Assembly: GCF_008065095.1 (NCBI RefSeq)
Contig: NZ_CP042911.1
Location: forward strand, 3,360,001 to 3,392,000
Origin: Gemmata obscuriglobus
GTDB taxonomy: Bacteria > Planctomycetota > Planctomycetia > Gemmatales > Gemmataceae
Length of the DNA: 32,000 nucleotides
Direction of reading: 5' to 3'
Shown piece by piece: positions 11,895 to 29,381 of this stretch. Both the position numbers and the translations under genes were made by a program. The notes under the pieces are model-generated. The model was not told the origin of the DNA. It ran no database searches and worked only from the letters and a program-made list of their open reading frames with translations. Position 1 is the stretch's first letter, and each line of letters begins with the position of its first letter.

Positions 11895-12632
11895 TCACTC
11901 ACCCAGCACGAACGCGAACAGCGCCTCGGCGGCCTTCTGGCGTTCCACCTCCAGCAGGTTCGCCTGCTCCTTCGCCACCTTGATCGCGTCTTGGAGCTTC
12001 CGCACCCGGGCCAGGATCGCGTTCTTGCGGTCGGTGGCGATGCAGCCGCTGTACACGATCTGCGTCCAGGTCCCGACCGGCACGTCCTTGGTGAACAGCT
12101 CCGTCTGAGCCGGGTGCTCCTTCGTCGCCTCGTACTTCACGATCACCGTCGGTTCCTTGCTGGTGCGTAGCGACTCGGTCGCTTTGCTCCGCAGCAGGCC
12201 GGTGTTTGGGTCGTGTACCCACTCCTCCGCCGGGTCCGGGGTCGGGAGCTTCGACACGAAGGTTTCGAGGTCGTTCACCTGCTTGTCGAGGAACAGCAGC
12301 GTGGTGACCGGTACGTTTGCCAGGATCACCTTGCCGTCCACAACGATGTCGGCCCGCGCCGACTGGTTCCCCGTGTCCTGGGTGAACACGAGGTTCCACA
12401 GCTCCGTCCACTTCTCGCGCGCCTGACGAACCAGGTCGTCGGCCCGCTGCTGGACGCGCTGGCTTTCGGGCGGGAGCTTCTGCCCGTTCACTTCGTCGAG
12501 CGGGCGGTACGTCCGCTCCCGGCCCGTGAAGAGCTGTTCCTTCTGGATCAGTTTGTACAACTCGGTGACGTGCTTCTCGGCCTCGCCCTTGCGTGCGGTG
12601 ACGACGGCGTTGATCTGGTTCAGTTTGGGCAT
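11895..12632 (-). CDS. conserved hypothetical protein (245 aa), no assigned function
   Basis: Clean ORF with non-biased composition: MPKLNQINAVVTARKGEAEKHVTELYKLIQKEQLFTGRERTYRPLDE...PPESQRVQ...ADIVVDGKVILANVPVTTLLFLDKQVNDLETFVSKLPTPDP...HPAQTELFTKDVPVGTW. From memory it resembles an uncharacterised family also seen in Actinobacteria. No motif of known function was seen. Confidence 0.85.
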   Translation of the reverse strand: MPKLNQINAVVTARKGEAEKHVTELYKLIQKEQLFTGRERTYRPLDEVNGQKLPPESQRVQQRADDLVRQAREKWTELWNLVFTQDTGNQSARADIVVDGKVILANVPVTTLLFLDKQVNDLETFVSKLPTPDPAEEWVHDPNTGLLRSKATESLRTSKEPTVIVKYEATKEHPAQTELFTKDVPVGTWTQIVYSGCIATDRKNAILARVRKLQDAIKVAKEQANLLEVERQKAAEALFAFVLGE

Positions 12633-25912: not shown

Positions 25913-26022
25913 CCCGCCCCGCGGCAGGGTGGGTTTGCGTGGTAGCGGGTTCGTGTGTACCATTCGCACAGTCACGGCCACGCGATGGTTCGCAACGCCG
26001 GCGCCACCACCGAACACCCGCT

Positions 26023-27576
26023 ATGTCTTCACAACCCGTCACGTTCCCGTGTTCCTTCTGCACGCGCCGGATGGGCGTACCGGCCGAACTCCTCGGGCGA
26101 CAGGTCCGGTGCCCGCACTGCAAGCAGGTCGTCGTCGCGCCCGCCACCGCCGGCGCCGCCCCGGAGATCGTGCCCCCGCCTCCGCCCCCGCCCGCTCCCG
26201 TTCCCCCACCGGAGCCAGAACTGCGGTCGTTCGACCTGCCGGTGCAGAAGGAAGAGGCCGACAGCATCCTGAGCGACCCCCACGAGTCCGAAGACGAGGT
26301 GTTCGGGTCCAGTACCGCCTCGCGCCTTCGGACCCTGACGCGCGAGCCGGCCCCGGAACCGGTGGCCCCGGCGCCCGCCCGCCCGATCAACGCCGGGCCG
26401 GCACCGGTCGCGGGTGGGTCGGCTCCCGCCCACCCCTTTAGCAGCTCGCTCCCGCTCCCAAACCTGCCGGCGCCCGTGAAGGCACCGCTCCCGCAACCGG
26501 TCGCGAAACCGACGGCACTCGCCCCCGCCGACGATCCCAAACCTGCACCGCCGCCAGCGCCAGCGGCCCCACCGTCGCCGCCGAAATCGACGCCCGCGCC
26601 GCCCCCCGCGCCCGCACTGGACAACCCGTTCGCGCTGCTCAGCGCCATCCAGTCTGCCGCGAAGACGCCCGCGCTCGCACCCGCCGTCGAGGAGCGGCTC
26701 GAAACCGGCGAAGACGAGCCAGCTCAAACGAAGAAGCGCAAGGAACGAGACGAGGAGCCTGAAGAGCGGCCGATGCGGGCGACCTCTGGTCGCGCCGGCG
26801 GTGGTGCCGGAGGCGCGAAGACCGTGCTGCTGGTGGTTCTGGCGGGCTACGCGTTCATCGCCACCGTGGCCGCCGTGTACGGACTGTTTTTCCGCTCCGG
26901 GACGCCCGCCGGGCACCCGCTTTCCACCATCCCGGACACCTTCGGCGAGTTCGACCCCGTGAGCCGGAAGAAGGTCACCCAGGCGACGTTCCCGGTAGAC
27001 GGCCCGCTGCCGCCCGAGTTGCGCGCCGGGCTCGGCAACACGATCTCCATCGGTCAGCTCGAAGTCCAGCCGACGAAGGTCGAGAAGCGCAAGCTCGCGA
27101 TCCGGGTCGCGGGGACCGACGACCGTGAGGCCGAGCGCACGATGTACCCCGGCCCGGCGCTGGTCATGACGCTCGACATCAAGAACACGTCGCCGGATCT
27201 GCCGATCCTGCCGATGGACCCGGCGTTCACCCGGCGCGAGGCCGCGAGCGATCAGCCGATTACCCGACTCGTCACGAGCAAGCGGGCGTTCTACGGCGGC
27301 GAAATCGAGTGGCCGTGGCCGAAGGGGGTGAAAAGGAAGATCGAGGTGCAACAGGGCAACGACGCGATCCCGCTGCGACCGGGCGAAAGCCGCGAGTACG
27401 TGGTGTTCACGGCCGCCGGCGCGGACCTGATCCGCACCGCCGAGGCCGAGAAAGGCCCGTTGCAGTGGCGGGTGCAGTTGCGCCGCGGGCTGATCGAGTA
27501 CAAGGGGAAGGAGGTCCCGGTTACGGCGGTGATCGGGGTGGACTTCCAGGCGGCCGACATCCGCACGCCCGACTGA
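26023..27576 (+). CDS. zinc-ribbon / proline-rich linker / single TM / beta-rich extracytoplasmic domain protein (517 aa)
   Basis: ATG at 26023. The N-terminus CSFCTRRMGVPAELLGRQVRCPHCKQVV is a CxxC-x17-CxxC ribbon of the MJ0042 type. About 230 aa of Pro/Ala-rich sequence follow. The TM helix is VLLVVLAGYAFIATVAAVYGLFF. The C-terminal ~200 aa have a beta-sandwich-like pattern (DIKNTSPDLPILP...LRPGESREYVVFT), reminiscent of DUF4352-type domains. Confidence 0.75.
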   Translation: MSSQPVTFPCSFCTRRMGVPAELLGRQVRCPHCKQVVVAPATAGAAPEIVPPPPPPPAPVPPPEPELRSFDLPVQKEEADSILSDPHESEDEVFGSSTASRLRTLTREPAPEPVAPAPARPINAGPAPVAGGSAPAHPFSSSLPLPNLPAPVKAPLPQPVAKPTALAPADDPKPAPPPAPAAPPSPPKSTPAPPPAPALDNPFALLSAIQSAAKTPALAPAVEERLETGEDEPAQTKKRKERDEEPEERPMRATSGRAGGGAGGAKTVLLVVLAGYAFIATVAAVYGLFFRSGTPAGHPLSTIPDTFGEFDPVSRKKVTQATFPVDGPLPPELRAGLGNTISIGQLEVQPTKVEKRKLAIRVAGTDDREAERTMYPGPALVMTLDIKNTSPDLPILPMDPAFTRREAASDQPITRLVTSKRAFYGGEIEWPWPKGVKRKIEVQQGNDAIPLRPGESREYVVFTAAGADLIRTAEAEKGPLQWRVQLRRGLIEYKGKEVPVTAVIGVDFQAADIRTPD

Positions 27577-27685
27577 AATCCTGAAATCCGGCGCGGGGGT
27601 TGAACCTCCCGGCCCCGTGCGGCATCATGAACAACGCACAGGCGTGCAGGCTGAGGATCAGGTTCCGGCTCAACCGCGGCCAAGA

Positions 27686-27830
27686 AGAGTGTGGGTTCGA
27701 GTCCCACCCCCGCCACTCCCTTTGGGAAGTCAAAAGGGGCCAGTAGAAAGGCGAACGGCGACCGAAGATGTTGTTGCCCCACTTTCCCCTTGTGCCTTGT
27801 TTCTGGCGGGGTAGCCCAACGGTAGAGGCG
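27686..27830 (+). ncRNA. tRNA-like half-set X: T-arm + acceptor 3' strand, 90-nt insert, then acceptor 5' strand + D-arm
   Basis: The T arm is GTGGG-TTCGAGT-CCCAC (27691-27707). CCCCGCC (27708-27714) plus A follows, with no encoded CCA. Downstream, GGCGGGG (27805-27811) is a 7/7 complement, followed by TA and the D-arm GCCC-AACGGTAG-AGGC (27814-27829). No anticodon-type stem was found. The identity is uncertain (pseudo-tRNA or structured RNA). Confidence 0.4.
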
Positions 27831-27909
27831 ATACGGCTGCCCCCAGGTTCAGGTTGTCACGCCAAGCTCAAACCCGTGCCGAGGTGCCCAATCGAACGAC
27901 CGGCTCCAA

Positions 27910-27988
27910 CCAACCTATAGTGGTTCGAATCCATTCCCCCGCGCTTCGCCCGACCCACGCGGGGGTTGCCTAACGGTAAGGCAGTTGG
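27910..27988 (+). ncRNA. tRNA-like cloverleaf core encoded in circularly permuted order (acceptor stem closed by a 14-nt loop; YrlA/Y-RNA-like tRNA mimic candidate)
   Basis: The order on the + strand is as follows. CCAAC (27910-14), CTAT, then T arm AGTGG-TTCGAAT-CCATT (27919-35). CCCCCGC (27936-42), G, then the loop CTTCGCCCGACCCA. C, GCGGGGG (27959-65), TT, then D arm GCCT-AACGGTA-AGGC (27968-82). A, then GTTGG (27984-88). All four stems pair (7, 4, 5 and 5 bp, with one G-U). U8, A14, G18G19, A21, G53, T54T55C56, A58 and C61 are all in place. Confidence 0.55.
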
Positions 27989-28070
27989 TCAACAAACTCA
28001 AAGCCGGCGACCGGATACTGTGAGCACTCCCTGAGACGGCACACCTACACGCGCGAGCGAGAGGGACCCA

Positions 28071-28113
28071 GCCCCGGCGAGCCGGCGAAAGCTCGACCGG
28101 GGCGCTTTTATTT
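28071..28113 (+). terminator. strong rho-independent terminator ending the tRNA-like RNA locus, 8 nt before the cca-family ATG
   Basis: GCCCCGG-CGAGC (28071-28082), the loop cggcgaaa, then GCTCG-A-CCGGGGC (28091-28103). That is 12 bp with one bulge, followed by gc TTTTATTT (28106-28113). Confidence 0.7.
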
Positions 28114-28121
28114 CCGCACCC

Positions 28122-29381
28122 ATGACCGACCGCGAGTTTGCTCTTAGTGTGGTCCGCACCCTTCAGTCCGCCGGGTTCACCGCTCTCTGGGCCGGCGGGT
28201 GCGTGCGCGACGAGTTCCTCGGGCTCGTGCCCGAAGACTACGACGTGGCCACGTCGGCGCGACCGGAGCAGTTGCGCCCGCTGTTCCGCCGGCGGAACGA
28301 GATCGGCGCGCACTTCGGTGTGGTGCAGGTCATCGGCCCGAAGAAGGCCGACGGCACCTGGCACACCATCGAGGTGGCGAGCTTCCGGTCCGACGGCGCG
28401 TACACCGACGGGCGCCGCCCGGACACCGTCACCTTCTCCACGCCCGAAGAGGACGCGCAGCGGCGCGACTTCACCGTCAACGGAATGTTCTTCGACCCTG
28501 TTCGGAACGAGCTGCTCGACTTCGTGGGCGGCCGGGCGGACCTGGACGCGAAGGTGCTGCGCGCGATCGGCGACCCCTTCGCACGGTTCACCGAGGACAA
28601 GCTCCGCATCCTGCGCGCGGCCCGCATGGCGACGCGGTTCGGGCTCGCCATCGACCCCACCACCCGTGACGCCGCGCAACAAATGGCGCCGCAGGTGAGC
28701 GTGGTTTCGGCCGAGCGGGTTGCCGAGGAGTTGCGGAAGCTGTTCGCCCACCCGAACCGCACACGCGGGCTCGCGCTGCTTCGCGAGCTGGGGCTCATCG
28801 AACCGATTTTGCCGGAACTGACACCCTCAGCGGATCGTGCCAGCGCGGCACTCGCGGCGCTGAGCGAAGTGGGCGGGCGGCTCCCCTTTCCTCTCGCGTT
28901 CGCGGTCACACTCCACGCGGTCGGCAGAGCGGTCACGGAACGCGTCGCCGAGCGGCTGAAGCTCTCGAACGTTGAGAGCGACCGTCTCTGCTGGCTGGTG
29001 GCGAACCAGAGCGTGCTGACCGATGCCGAGGTCATGCGCCCGAGTAAGCTCAAACCGCTGCTGGTTCACCCGGGCATCGACGACTTGCTCGCGCTCCACC
29101 GGGCGCTGGCGACCGCGACCGGCGGGAGCCTGGCCCCGGTCGAGTTCTGTACACGCGTCCTGCGGGACACGCCGCCCGAGGAACTGAACCCGCCGCCCGT
29201 GCTGACCGGGGCGGACCTGATCGCCCGGGGGCTGAAGCCCGGTCCGGCGTTCAAGCGCCTGCTCGATGCCGTTCGGGAAGCCCAGCTCGAAGGGCGGGCG
29301 GCGACGAAGGAGCAGGGGCACGCCCTGGTAACCCGGCTGCTCGCGGAACCGGGAGACGCGCCTGAACCACCGCCGGGGTAG
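28122..29381 (+). CDS. cca: CCA-adding enzyme / poly(A) polymerase family (class II) tRNA nucleotidyltransferase
   Basis: 419 aa. The N-terminal head motif is LWAGGCVRDEFLGLVPEDYDVATSARPEQ. The blocks FRSDGAYTDGRRP, RDFTVNGMFFD, F.EDKLRILRAARMATR are canonical for the PolyA_pol/Cca family. CCA-adding versus A-adding or PAP specificity cannot be decided by eye. Confidence 0.85.
   Translation: MTDREFALSVVRTLQSAGFTALWAGGCVRDEFLGLVPEDYDVATSARPEQLRPLFRRRNEIGAHFGVVQVIGPKKADGTWHTIEVASFRSDGAYTDGRRPDTVTFSTPEEDAQRRDFTVNGMFFDPVRNELLDFVGGRADLDAKVLRAIGDPFARFTEDKLRILRAARMATRFGLAIDPTTRDAAQQMAPQVSVVSAERVAEELRKLFAHPNRTRGLALLRELGLIEPILPELTPSADRASAALAALSEVGGRLPFPLAFAVTLHAVGRAVTERVAERLKLSNVESDRLCWLVANQSVLTDAEVMRPSKLKPLLVHPGIDDLLALHRALATATGGSLAPVEFCTRVLRDTPPEELNPPPVLTGADLIARGLKPGPAFKRLLDAVREAQLEGRAATKEQGHALVTRLLAEPGDAPEPPPG

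What the first reader, a model, noticed from the sequence alone, without database searches (positions are those of the whole stretch)
27577..28130. tRNA-mimic RNA locus sits as a terminated leader immediately upstream of the CCA-adding-enzyme-family gene
The whole 545-nt gap between the zinc-ribbon membrane protein gene and the class II nucleotidyltransferase gene is filled by co-oriented tRNA-like modules. Their acceptor 3' strands are not followed by an encoded CCA. The gap ends in a strong intrinsic terminator (28071-28113) only 8 nt before the ATG at 28122. There is no room for an independent promoter and no SD.

One inference is that cca-family expression depends on read-through of this terminator. 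The tRNA-like leader would then be a mimic of the enzyme's own substrate, giving autoregulation comparable to the tRNA-mimic operator of thrS or to T-box logic.

Alternatively, the enzyme may act on the adjacent RNA, for example by maturation or tailing of a Y-RNA-like molecule. Either would be an undescribed pairing of a tRNA mimic with a nucleotidyltransferase.
Basis: inference. Interest (0 to 1): 0.6.

Follow-up and report, generated by a model that had tools for sequence, protein, structure and literature searches.

The report
Double tRNA-mimic RNA gene before cca
The gap in front of the Gemmata CCA-adding-enzyme gene is not a regulatory leader but a separate, conserved gene for a roughly 480-base RNA. 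The RNA carries two back-to-front tRNA look-alikes and belongs to an apparently undescribed RNA family that usually sits next to a protein of unknown function (DUF7873).

Summary
The sequence features are real, but "leader of cca" is the wrong frame.

**What it is.** Window 27636-28113 is a stand-alone non-coding RNA gene. It has its own conserved promoter (TTGAAC-17 nt-CATCAT, 27600-27628) and its own intrinsic terminator (28071-28113). The RNA has two domains. Each is a circularly permuted tRNA mimic, in the order T-arm, 7-bp acceptor stem capped by a loop, D-arm. Each is closed by a long helix, and compensatory base changes support the fold strongly.

**Closest known.** Architecturally it is a tandem pair of divergent YrlA-type (bacterial Y RNA) units. 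It fails Rfam's YrlA threshold, and this genome has no detectable Ro60 gene.

**Neighbours.**
- Across Gemmataceae the RNA co-occurs with DUF7873 (21 of 22 genomes), usually directly downstream of it. I found the same pair in phage tRNA clusters.
- cca lies downstream mainly within the genus Gemmata: 13 of 19 loci there, 3 of 19 loci from other genera.
- This cca is the genome's only class II nucleotidyltransferase.

**Processing clue.** Both acceptor stems are followed by N73-C74-U75, the trailer typical of this genome's CCA-less tRNA genes. RNase P cutting and CCA tailing, as shown for M. smegmatis YrlA, are therefore plausible.

**Not tested.** Autoregulation has no support.

This scan had already found the same RNA/DUF7873 pair on other DNA.

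The parts
27600..27628 (+). Promoter-like element of the RNA gene: TTGAAC (27600-27605), 17-nt variable spacer, CATCAT (27623-27628). The predicted start is about 27636.
   Evidence: TTGAAC plus a 17-18-nt variable spacer plus an ATCAT-containing -10 element is present in 16 of the 17 Gemmata regions scanned; the 17th is cut off at its 5' end. Other genera carry TAnnnT-type -10 boxes at the same distance. Not mapped experimentally.
27636..28113 (+). Predicted transcript of the double tRNA-mimic RNA, about 478 nt here and about 400 nt in relatives that lack the insertion.
   Evidence: It is conserved in 18 of 24 other genomes of the same genus. Full-length domain-2 matches occur in 22 of 151 Gemmataceae genomes. 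RNAalifold predicts 82 pairs, 30 of them with compensatory changes.
27641..27655 (+). Domain 1 closing helix, 5' strand (GGCGTG, then GGCTGAG). It pairs with 27848-27863.
   Evidence: The helix is invariant within Gemmata but covaries in distant loci: GGAGTG/CACTCC, CGAGTG/CACTCG, GCAACG/CGTTGC (read by eye).
27691..27717 (+). Module A: T-arm (27691-27707), acceptor 3' strand CCCCGCC (27708-27714), then A73-C74-T75 (27715-27717).
   Evidence: T-stem and acceptor pairs carry changes on both sides. The A-C-T after the stem is invariant in 16 sequences. It matches the host tRNA-gene trailer.
27718..27804 (+). Capping loop of acceptor stem A. It includes a lineage-specific hairpin insertion of about 85 nt.
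   Evidence: This stretch is only about 12 nt long in 11 of 16 aligned relatives. Unrelated insertions sit at the same spot in G008, G018 and G019.
27805..27829 (+). Module A: acceptor 5' strand GGCGGGG (27805-27811) and D-arm (27814-27829).
   Evidence: It pairs with 27708-27714, not with the downstream 3' strand. Covariation examples: CCCCTTC/GAAGGGG, TCCCACC/GGTGGGA.
27848..27863 (+). Domain 1 closing helix, 3' strand (TTCAGGTT..CACGCC).
27876..27890 (+). Domain 2 closing helix, 5' strand (GTGCCG-A-GGTGCCCA). It pairs with 28021-28042.
   Evidence: Helices 1 and 3 are 99% and 95% paired, with 4 of 6 and 6 of 7 pairs changed on both sides.
27919..27945 (+). Module B: T-arm (27919-27935), acceptor 3' strand CCCCCGC (27936-27942), then G73-C74-T75 (27943-27945).
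27959..27982 (+). Module B: acceptor 5' strand GCGGGGG (27959-27965) and D-arm (27968-27982).
   Evidence: In the 8-pair acceptor helix as modelled (the 7-bp stem plus a flanking pair that often fails), 7 pairs show changes on both sides. In the D-stem, 3 of 4 pairs do.
28021..28042 (+). Domain 2 closing helix, 3' strand, around the near-invariant internal loop CCCTGAGA (28029-28036).
   Evidence: CACTCCYTGAGACRGCAC is shared by all Gemmata copies. The helix covaries, while the loop is conserved only within Gemmata and close kin.
28071..28113 (+). Intrinsic terminator: 12-bp GC-rich stem (28071-28103), GC spacer, UUUUAUUU (28106-28113).
   Evidence: The 71-nt stretch 28055-28125 folds at -32.6 kcal/mol, z = -3.0. 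A hairpin plus T-run is present in all 16 relatives, with compensatory changes. The simple scanner missed it.
28122..29381 (+). cca: class II nucleotidyltransferase, the only one in the genome. It starts 8 nt after the terminator.
   Evidence: PolyA_pol head plus RNA-binding domains. The best NCBIfam match is CCA tRNA nucleotidyltransferase, below its cut-off. There is a single PF01743 hit in the 9.0-Mb genome. 99 of 101 tRNA genes lack an encoded CCA.
11895..12632 (-). DUF7873 gene, the family's usual upstream partner. Here it is displaced 15 kb and lies on the other strand.
   Evidence: PF25283 at 314 bits. It is the only copy in the genome. For co-occurrence and adjacency elsewhere.

Best explanation
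The gap holds an independent gene for a structured non-coding RNA of about 480 nt. It is transcribed from its own sigma-70-like promoter (27600-28) and ended by its own intrinsic terminator (28071-28113).

**Architecture.** The RNA consists of two tandem domains. Each is a circularly permuted tRNA mimic, in this order: closing helix, anticodon-stem-like helix, T-arm, 7-bp acceptor stem capped by a loop, D-arm. There is no anticodon loop. It is built like two fused YrlA-type bacterial Y RNAs. It belongs, however, to a separate, Ro60-independent family whose constant genomic partner is the 245-aa protein DUF7873.

**Inferred steps.**
1. Each capping loop is treated like a pre-tRNA junction. RNase P cuts 5' of G+1 (27805 and 27959). 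The 3' side is trimmed to N73 or C74.
2. The cell's single CCA-adding enzyme, encoded immediately downstream, completes a CCA end. This would leave up to three base-paired pieces with two tRNA-like heads.
3. The large insertion in loop A would be discarded in the process.
4. cca has no promoter space of its own. It is probably expressed by transcription that passes the RNA's terminator.

I read this as operon-style coupling of an enzyme gene to one of its abundant substrates, kept mainly in the genus Gemmata. It is not a sensing or attenuation device.
For: **Shown**
- *Own promoter and terminator.* Both are conserved while the spacer and stem sequences vary.
- *Permuted pairing.* The acceptor 3' strand covaries with the downstream 5' strand, not in gene order.
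- *Domain-2 fold on 37 sequences.* 96.3% of cells are paired, against about 40% when partners are slid. 34 of 44 pairs change on both sides. 0 of 500 shuffles reach the observed values. The alignment was fitted to the model.
- *Relation to YrlA.* Full-length but sub-threshold YrlA matches to both domains in a relative: 39.3 and 26.5 bits.
- *Ro60.* No TROVE gene in this closed genome. In the 7 genomes that hold both, the RNA and TROVE are never on the same contig.
- *DUF7873.* Present in 23 of 151 Gemmataceae genomes, 21 of them among the 22 with the RNA. In 16 of those 21 it lies directly upstream on the same strand.
- *Same pair elsewhere.* Found in three divergent metagenomic loci with RNA regions of 38-53% GC and inside a Gordonia phage tRNA cluster.
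- *cca.* A single PF01743 gene. 99 of 101 tRNA genes lack CCA.

**Supporting the inferred processing**
- Both acceptor stems are 7 bp. Both are followed by N-C-T, the trailer of 68 of 97 host tRNA genes; 83 of 97 have C74.
- Phage homologues encode N-CCA at exactly this spot, followed 2 nt later by the 5' strand.
- M. smegmatis YrlA, the one YrlA with a 7-bp acceptor stem, is cut by RNase P and receives CCA in vivo (PMC4201824).
- Insertions of 80-100 nt are tolerated only in capping loop A.

**Supporting read-through**
- Only 9-42 nt separate the RNA from cca in 12 Gemmata loci.
- Where the RNA is absent from this site, cca sits 32-50 nt behind the upstream gene.
Against: - No transcript, end-mapping, binding or processing data exist for this organism. 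The tool for finding sequencing runs was unavailable.
- S. Typhimurium YrlA and D. radiodurans Yrn1 are not cut by RNase P (PMC4201824), so tRNA mimicry does not guarantee processing.
- The N-C-U trailer could simply be inherited from a tRNA ancestor.
- The terminator looks strong, so read-through may be low. A leaderless cca mRNA from a promoter overlapping the terminator is not excluded.
- In this genome DUF7873 lies 15 kb away on the opposite strand, so adjacency, the main argument for a partnership, is not met here.
- Co-occurrence across kin is not independent evidence. An earlier in-scan check priced the RNA-protein binding claim at only 22/100.
- The anticodon-like helix of domain 1 has only modest statistical support: median z = -1.5, and 11 of 30 sequences at or below 0.05.
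Confidence: 0.8

Rival explanations
1. First reader's main model. The tRNA-like RNA is a cis-acting leader of cca. The CCA-adding enzyme, or uncharged or CCA-less tRNA, binds the mimic and sets the balance between termination and read-through at 28113, which autoregulates cca.
For: - The terminator ends 8 nt before the ATG, with no promoter or Shine-Dalgarno space.
- The tight RNA-cca spacing (9-42 nt) is kept in 12 of 19 Gemmata loci, under two different upstream contexts.
- The mimic resembles the enzyme's substrate.
Against: - The RNA is conserved in structure where no cca follows: 6 of 19 Gemmata loci, 16 of 19 loci from other genera, three metagenomic loci and one phage locus.
- No alternative antiterminator pairing that involves the terminator is predicted.
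- The terminator is separated from the tRNA-like domains by a variable hairpin.
- The RNA has its own promoter directly upstream. In other genomes it ends with the same kind of terminator in front of unrelated genes.
Confidence: 0.07
2. It is a genuine Y RNA (YrlA family member) that works with a Ro60/Rsr orthologue, as in Salmonella, Mycobacterium or Deinococcus.
For: - It has the same permuted T-arm / capped acceptor / D-arm core, with weak to moderate YrlA hits.
- Near-threshold YrlA arrays sit next to TROVE genes in other Gemmataceae.
- The domain-2 closing helix contains GCCGAGG, which resembles the Ro-binding GNCGAAN(0-1)G motif.
Against: - YrlA scores 17 bits against a gathering score of 69.
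- No TROVE gene was found in this 99.5%-complete closed genome.
- 15 of 22 RNA-bearing genomes have no TROVE hit, and the two are never linked.
- The exact Ro-binding motif is absent.
Confidence: 0.05
3. Relic or mobile-element cargo. The locus is a decayed or rearranged tRNA gene cluster, or a prophage-derived tRNA-like remnant, with no present function. Its position before cca is accidental.
For: - Homologues lie inside phage tRNA clusters.
- The locus has been rearranged repeatedly within Gemmata.
- An insertion sits in loop A.
Against: - Compensatory changes keep every helix, from sequences of 38% GC to 68% GC.
- The promoter and terminator are kept.
- The partner protein is 82-99% identical across genera, which indicates strong purifying selection.
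Confidence: 0.03

Closest known systems
YrlA (Y RNA-like A; Rfam RF02553; Chen et al. 2014, PMC4201824; Wang et al. 2018, 10.1101/312249)
   Same: - A circularly permuted tRNA mimic: T-arm, acceptor stem closed by a loop, D-arm, all closed by a long helix formed by flanking strands.
- The M. smegmatis member, with a 7-bp acceptor stem, is cut by RNase P and CCA-tailed.
- Often encoded in tandem copies.
   Different: - Two units are fused in one promoter-to-terminator transcript of 400-480 nt.
- It is far below the Rfam threshold (17 bits here).
- The exact GNCGAAN(0-1)G Ro-binding motif is absent.
- No Ro60/TROVE gene is in the genome or linked anywhere.
- The conserved neighbour is DUF7873 instead.
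The DUF7873-associated double tRNA-mimic RNA noted earlier by this scan on other genomes and phages (e1-2703945, e1-4274050, e1-3443960 and others). I found no publication or Rfam family for it.
   Same: - A two-domain permuted tRNA-like RNA of about 360-400 nt.
- Co-occurrence with DUF7873.
- No Ro60.
- Phage copies lie in tRNA clusters, some with CCA in the capping loop. I re-derived all of these points independently here.
   Different: - In G. obscuriglobus the DUF7873 gene has been separated from the RNA (15 kb away, opposite strand).
- The RNA carries an ~85-nt insertion in loop A.
- The sole cca gene follows 8 nt after the terminator.
Two-piece (circularly permuted) tmRNA genes of alpha-proteobacteria and cyanobacteria, and permuted tRNA genes of Cyanidioschyzon merolae (from my own knowledge)
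   Same: The 3' acceptor strand and T-arm are encoded upstream of the 5' acceptor strand. The intervening segment is removed by tRNA-processing enzymes to give a CCA end.
   Different: - It has no tag reading frame, no G3:U70 and no pseudoknots.
- A standard tmRNA lies elsewhere in the genome.
- It has no anticodon loop, so it cannot decode.
   Same: A tRNA-related RNA and a terminator lie upstream of a gene for a tRNA-handling enzyme.
   Different: - There is no specifier loop, no T-box sequence and no antiterminator alternative. Rfam gives no T-box hit.
- The RNA mimics the acceptor/T/D part of a tRNA. It does not bind a tRNA.
- It is conserved independently of the downstream gene.

Membership tests
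YrlA (Rfam RF02553) | Covariance-model score at or above the curated gathering score (69 bits) | tested here: not met
   17.0 bits for 27690-27829, covering only model positions 30-81. The best full-length match in a relative is 39.3 bits.
YrlA (Rfam RF02553) | Permuted tRNA-like core: T-arm, capped acceptor stem, D-arm, closed by a helix of the flanking strands | tested here: met
   Present in both domains and supported by covariation.
YrlA (Rfam RF02553) | Ro60/Rsr (TROVE) orthologue encoded in the genome, usually adjacent | tested here: not met
   No PF05731 match in the closed genome, while the control genomes did match. The RNA and TROVE are never on the same contig in relatives.
YrlA (Rfam RF02553) | Ro-binding motif GNCGAAN(0-1)G in the closing stem (PMC4201824) | tested here: inconclusive
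   Read by eye. The nearest strings are GCCGAGG (27879-27885) and ATCGAACG (27890-27897), and neither fits exactly.
DUF7873-associated double tRNA mimic (class from this scan, unpublished as far as I found) | Two permuted tRNA-like domains in one transcription unit | tested here: met
DUF7873-associated double tRNA mimic (class from this scan, unpublished as far as I found) | DUF7873 gene directly upstream on the same strand | tested here: not met
   In this genome DUF7873 is at 11895-12632 on the minus strand, 15 kb away. The feature is met in 16 of 21 co-occurring family genomes and in 8 of 19 Gemmata loci.
DUF7873-associated double tRNA mimic (class from this scan, unpublished as far as I found) | Co-occurrence of the RNA and DUF7873 in the same genome | tested here: met
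   One copy of each in G000. 21 genomes are shared out of 22 with the RNA and 23 with DUF7873, among 151 genomes. Kin are not independent.
tmRNA (standard or two-piece) | Match to a tmRNA model, a tag reading frame, alanine identity pair G3:U70 | tested here: not met
   ARAGORN finds none in the window. No Rfam tmRNA hit in the gap. The real tmRNA is at C1:1055235 with 131.7 bits. The acceptor stems have C3-G70.
T-box or other tRNA-responsive transcription attenuator | Mutually exclusive terminator and antiterminator, plus a tRNA-binding specifier or platform | tested here: not met
   No T-box hit. The consensus and minimum-free-energy folds show the terminator as an isolated hairpin. No experiment was done.
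Functional tRNA gene (linear or permuted) | Anticodon stem-loop with a 7-nt loop | tested here: not met
   The anticodon-like stems continue into long closing helices. ARAGORN is negative.

The most novel reading that the evidence does not exclude
In vivo the RNA is cut at both capping loops by RNase P and a 3' processing enzyme. The result is a three-piece, base-paired particle with two CCA-tailed (perhaps aminoacylatable) tRNA heads, bound by DUF7873. This would be a Ro60-independent counterpart of Y-RNA particles, shared by bacteria of several lineages and by phages that carry tRNA clusters. In Gemmata the sole CCA-adding enzyme would be made from the same transcript by terminator read-through, which would tie the enzyme's supply to this RNA.
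Probability: 0.2. Interest if true: 0.8.

Novelty: new variant of a known kind. Interest (0 to 1): 0.6.

Why it matters
If the reading holds, bacterial tRNA mimics of the Y-RNA type are not tied to Ro60. A second, widespread lineage would exist: two-headed, paired with the very highly conserved protein DUF7873, and carried by phages inside their tRNA gene sets. That points to an unexplored RNA-protein machine acting somewhere in tRNA metabolism, surveillance or phage-host conflict.

The Gemmata locus adds one testable handle. The RNA's heads carry the host's pre-tRNA 3' signature, and the gene of the only CCA-adding enzyme sits 8 nt behind its terminator. End-mapping in one culturable organism could therefore show whether such mimics are matured like tRNAs.

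For annotation, it also explains a 545-nt 'empty' gap, and it warns against calling such loci tRNA pseudogenes or leaders.

Tried and rejected
1. **tRNA or tmRNA gene.** ARAGORN finds nothing in the window. Rfam gives nothing at gathering score.
2. **Gene-order tRNA-like units (27593-27716, 27805-27946).** Rejected for two reasons.
   - The strand at 27593 lies in the non-conserved promoter region.
   - Acceptor strands covary only in the permuted pairing, for example CCCCTTC with the downstream GAAGGGG.
3. **Divergent tmRNA.** A normal tmRNA exists elsewhere in the genome.
4. **Ro60 partner.** No TROVE gene was found.
5. **Specialised cca paralogue.** It is the only PF01743 gene in the genome.
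6. **Ancestral order up-DUF7873-RNA-cca.** The upstream membrane-protein gene is not within 4 kb of DUF7873 in four Gemmata genomes. The rearrangement history stays unresolved.
7. **Function of DUF7873 from its fold.** The AlphaFold model is confident (pLDDT 90.6). Neither PDB nor BFVD gives a significant match: the best E-values are 0.064 and 0.024, with low TM-scores. The weak PUR-alpha hits are not evidence.
8. **tRNA identity of the heads.** Module A resembles a tRNA-Met(CAT) acceptor and T-arm. The acceptor sequence varies among relatives, so no identity is conserved.
10. **Literature.** There are no papers on DUF7873 and none found on Gemmata transcription starts. Burroughs and Aravind 2016 is not held in the library.
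11. **Terminator scan.** The simple promoter/terminator scanner missed the terminator because of its 8-nt loop and a bulge. Folding showed it.
Full report
**1. Observation**

The 545-nt gap lies between the 545-aa ORF (25939-27576, no Pfam family) and the PolyA_pol-family ORF (28122-29381). ARAGORN calls no tRNA or tmRNA, and Rfam has no hit at gathering score. With permissive thresholds, the only informative hit is a 17-bit partial match to YrlA over 27690-27829. It reads T-arm, acceptor 3' strand, a 91-nt interruption, acceptor 5' strand, D-arm, which is permuted order.

- Neither acceptor 3' strand is followed by CCA.
- A 12-bp GC-rich hairpin (28071-28103) is followed by GC-UUUUAUUU. The 71-nt stretch 28055-28125 folds at -32.6 kcal/mol, z = -3.0.
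- The hairpin ends 8 nt before the ATG at 28122. The conserved N-terminus MTDREF fixes that start.

**2. It is a gene of its own, not a leader**

The stretch is conserved in 18 of 24 other genomes of the same genus.

*Promoter.* Sixteen of the 17 regions scanned share TTGAAC, a 17-18-nt variable spacer and an ATCAT-containing -10 box; the 17th is cut off at its 5' end. An invariant GCACAGGCGTGC follows 7 nt later. That is the pattern of a promoter and a transcript start (window 27600-27628, start about 27636).

*Terminator.* All copies end with a hairpin plus T-run whose stem covaries.

*Insertion.* In 11 of the 16 aligned copies the two halves of module A are only about 12 nt apart. The roughly 85 nt at 27720-27804 are a lineage-specific insertion. 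Unrelated insertions occupy the same spot in three other lineages.

**3. Structure**

RNAalifold on 16 full-length copies predicts 82 pairs, 30 of them with compensatory changes. The RNA has two domains of the same design:
- a long closing helix (27641-55 with 27848-63; 27876-90 with 28021-42);
- an anticodon-stem-like helix;
- a T-arm;
- a 7-bp acceptor stem capped by a loop;
- a D-arm.

The acceptor 3' strand covaries with the 5' strand that follows it: CCCCGCC/GGCGGGG, CCCCTTC/GAAGGGG, TCCCACC/GGTGGGA. It does not covary with the one that precedes it, which rules out gene-order tRNAs.

I built a covariance model of domain 2 (R1) and aligned 37 copies from Gemmata, other genera and metagenomes. 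On that alignment:
- 96.3% of cells are paired, against about 40% when partners are slid by 1-3 columns;
- 34 of 44 pairs have changes on both sides;
- none of 500 shuffles reaches the observed values.

The alignment is model-fitted, which favours the structure. The slid controls and the spread from 38% to 68% GC still make the fold secure.

The domain-1 closing helix is invariant within Gemmata but covaries in distant copies: GGAGTG/CACTCC, CGAGTG/CACTCG, GCAACG/CGTTGC (by eye). The anticodon-like helix of domain 1 is present in every lineage with different sequences, but its statistical support is modest.

**4. Relation to YrlA and Ro60**

Other Gemmataceae carry tandem arrays of near-threshold YrlA RNAs next to TROVE genes: 68.1 and 63.6 bits against a gathering score of 69. 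In a relative of the present RNA, both domains give full-length YrlA alignments of 39.3 and 26.5 bits. Each domain is therefore a divergent YrlA-like unit, and the RNA is a fused pair.

It is not a YrlA member in the defined sense:
- The score is far below threshold.
- This closed, 99.5%-complete genome has no TROVE match, although the controls did match.
- Of the 22 Gemmataceae genomes with the full-length RNA, only 7 have a TROVE hit, and it is never on the same contig.

**5. The constant neighbour is DUF7873, not cca**

Clustering of flanking ORFs showed a conserved ~245-aa gene directly upstream in 19 loci. It is Pfam DUF7873, at 322 bits.

*Within the family.*
- Among 151 sampled Gemmataceae genomes, DUF7873 occurs in 23 and the RNA in 22, with 21 shared.
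- In 16 of those 21 the gene lies immediately upstream on the same strand.
- Kin are not independent, so this is a description and not a test.

*Beyond the family.*
- Three divergent DUF7873 genes taken from metagenomes (63-68% identical to the query) are each followed by a 450-500-nt gene-free gap. The gap holds the RNA at 58.7-84.2 bits, in RNA regions of 38-53% GC.
- In Gordonia phage Phendrix the gene and both RNA modules sit in the middle of a tRNA gene cluster.
- In Rhizobium phage RHph_TM61 the DUF7873 gene also lies in a tRNA gene cluster. The model found no significant match there, and I could make out only one tRNA-like module by eye.

*The protein.*
- It is 82-99% identical across Gemmataceae genera.
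- It gives a confident AlphaFold model (pLDDT 90.6).
- It has no significant structural match in PDB or BFVD.
- I found no paper that mentions it.

*In G. obscuriglobus.* The single DUF7873 gene is at window 11895-12632 on the minus strand, 15 kb from the RNA.

**6. The cca link**

cca lies 9-42 nt downstream of the RNA in 12 of 19 Gemmata loci, and 312 nt downstream in one more. It follows the RNA in only 3 of 19 loci from other genera, and in none of the metagenomic or phage loci.

Gemmata genomes show several arrangements:

| Arrangement | Loci |
|---|---|
| DUF7873-RNA-cca | 5 |
| upstream membrane protein-RNA-cca (includes this window) | 4 |
| DUF7873-RNA, no cca | 3 |
| upstream membrane protein, ~800-nt gap, RNA, no cca | 2 |

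In two genomes cca sits 32-50 nt behind the membrane-protein gene with no RNA between them. Three conclusions follow:
- The RNA does not need cca beside it.
- Within Gemmata the tight RNA-cca junction has survived changes on the other flank.
- cca in these genomes is regularly placed as a promoter-less downstream gene.

Read-through of the RNA's terminator is therefore the simplest way for cca to be expressed here. This is an inference.

cca is the only PF01743 gene in the genome, and 99 of 101 tRNA genes lack an encoded CCA. It must therefore be the essential housekeeping CCA-adding enzyme, not a dedicated partner of this RNA.

**7. Are the heads matured like tRNAs?**

Four observations bear on this.
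- Both acceptor stems are 7 bp. Chen et al. found that the one YrlA with a 7-bp stem (M. smegmatis) is cut by RNase P in vitro, and is cut and CCA-tailed in vivo. The Salmonella and Deinococcus RNAs are not cut (PMC4201824).
- In G. obscuriglobus tRNA genes, 83 of 97 have C at position 74 and 68 of 97 have C74-T75. Both heads of the RNA read N73-C74-T75 (A-C-T at 27715-17, G-C-T at 27943-45). The A-C-T is invariant in the 16 aligned copies.
- In phage Phendrix both capping loops read N-CCA plus 2 nt before the 5' strand. In phage RHph_TM61, where all 18 tRNA genes scored in the fetched stretch encode CCA, the head reads C-CCA.
- Large insertions are tolerated only inside capping loop A. That is what one expects of a segment that is cut out.

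Together these make RNase P cleavage, 3' trimming and CCA completion by the downstream-encoded enzyme a reasonable prediction (about even odds). No step has been shown in this organism.

**8. Verdict**

- *Observation:* partly confirmed.
- *Interpretation:* partly supported. The autoregulatory-leader model has no support. Co-transcription and CCA-tailing are plausible but untested.

The object is a stand-alone, two-headed, Ro60-independent YrlA-like tRNA mimic of the DUF7873-associated family. That family is not in Rfam 15, and I could not find it in the literature held here. This scan has already reported the same RNA/DUF7873 pair in at least 28 other genomes and phages. I reached it independently before that look-up, and after it I checked the phage, tRNA-cluster and CCA-loop claims myself. 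One of those earlier notes carries a later check that priced the protein-RNA binding claim at 22/100, which I take as a caution.

New in this window:
- the cca junction;
- the separation of the RNA from DUF7873;
- the insertion in loop A;
- the match between the heads' trailers and the host's tRNA-gene trailers.

Noticed in passing
Same genome outside the window: G000:C1:1267680-1268100 (locus L126 5680-6100): A tandem array of at least two or three single-headed YrlA-like RNAs, with closing stems GAGCGGGCCGCAC/GTGCGGCCCGCTC and CCCGTAC/GTACGGG. Rfam YrlA scores are 51.6 and 41.4 bits, below the gathering score of 69. The genome has no TROVE/Ro60 hit, and the adjacent 605-aa ORF has no Pfam family.
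   Followed up: partly
window 27649-27680, with equivalent stretches in L089, L094 and L120: Between the closing helix and the anticodon-like helix of domain 1 there are 3-4 head-to-tail hexamers of the form NNUCAG. Examples are GCUGAG GAUCAG GUUCCG GCUCAA here and ACUCAG x3 in other genera. Similar CUCAG motifs sit on the 3' side. This may be a repeated protein-binding site.
   Followed up: no
window 28029-28036: The internal-loop sequence CCCUGAGA, within CACUCCCUGAGACGGCAC, is invariant in 17 of 19 Gemmata copies (one has U for the third C). It is not conserved in distant homologues.
   Followed up: partly
L071 and L072 (G015, G008): In two Gemmata genomes cca follows the 545-aa membrane-protein gene directly (32-50-nt gap), while DUF7873-RNA lies elsewhere. 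The locus has therefore been rearranged at both RNA boundaries within one genus.
   Followed up: partly
L122 and L124 (metagenomic loci with RNA regions of ~40% GC): Here DUF7873-RNA sits among small unannotated genes, a cpYpsA (SLOG) gene, an Ogg-HhH-like gene and an HNH endonuclease gene. This context looks phage- or mobile-element-like.
   Followed up: no
L089, L090, L091, L096: In several genera the RNA starts within about 15 nt of the DUF7873 stop codon, and a TAAAAT-type -10 box overlaps the stop codon. The RNA's promoter therefore lies inside the end of the protein gene.
   Followed up: no
G000 genome-wide: G. obscuriglobus tRNA genes almost never encode CCA (2 of 101). They do show a strong N73-C74-U75 trailer signature (68 of 97), which may mark the 3' processing site in this organism.
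   Followed up: partly
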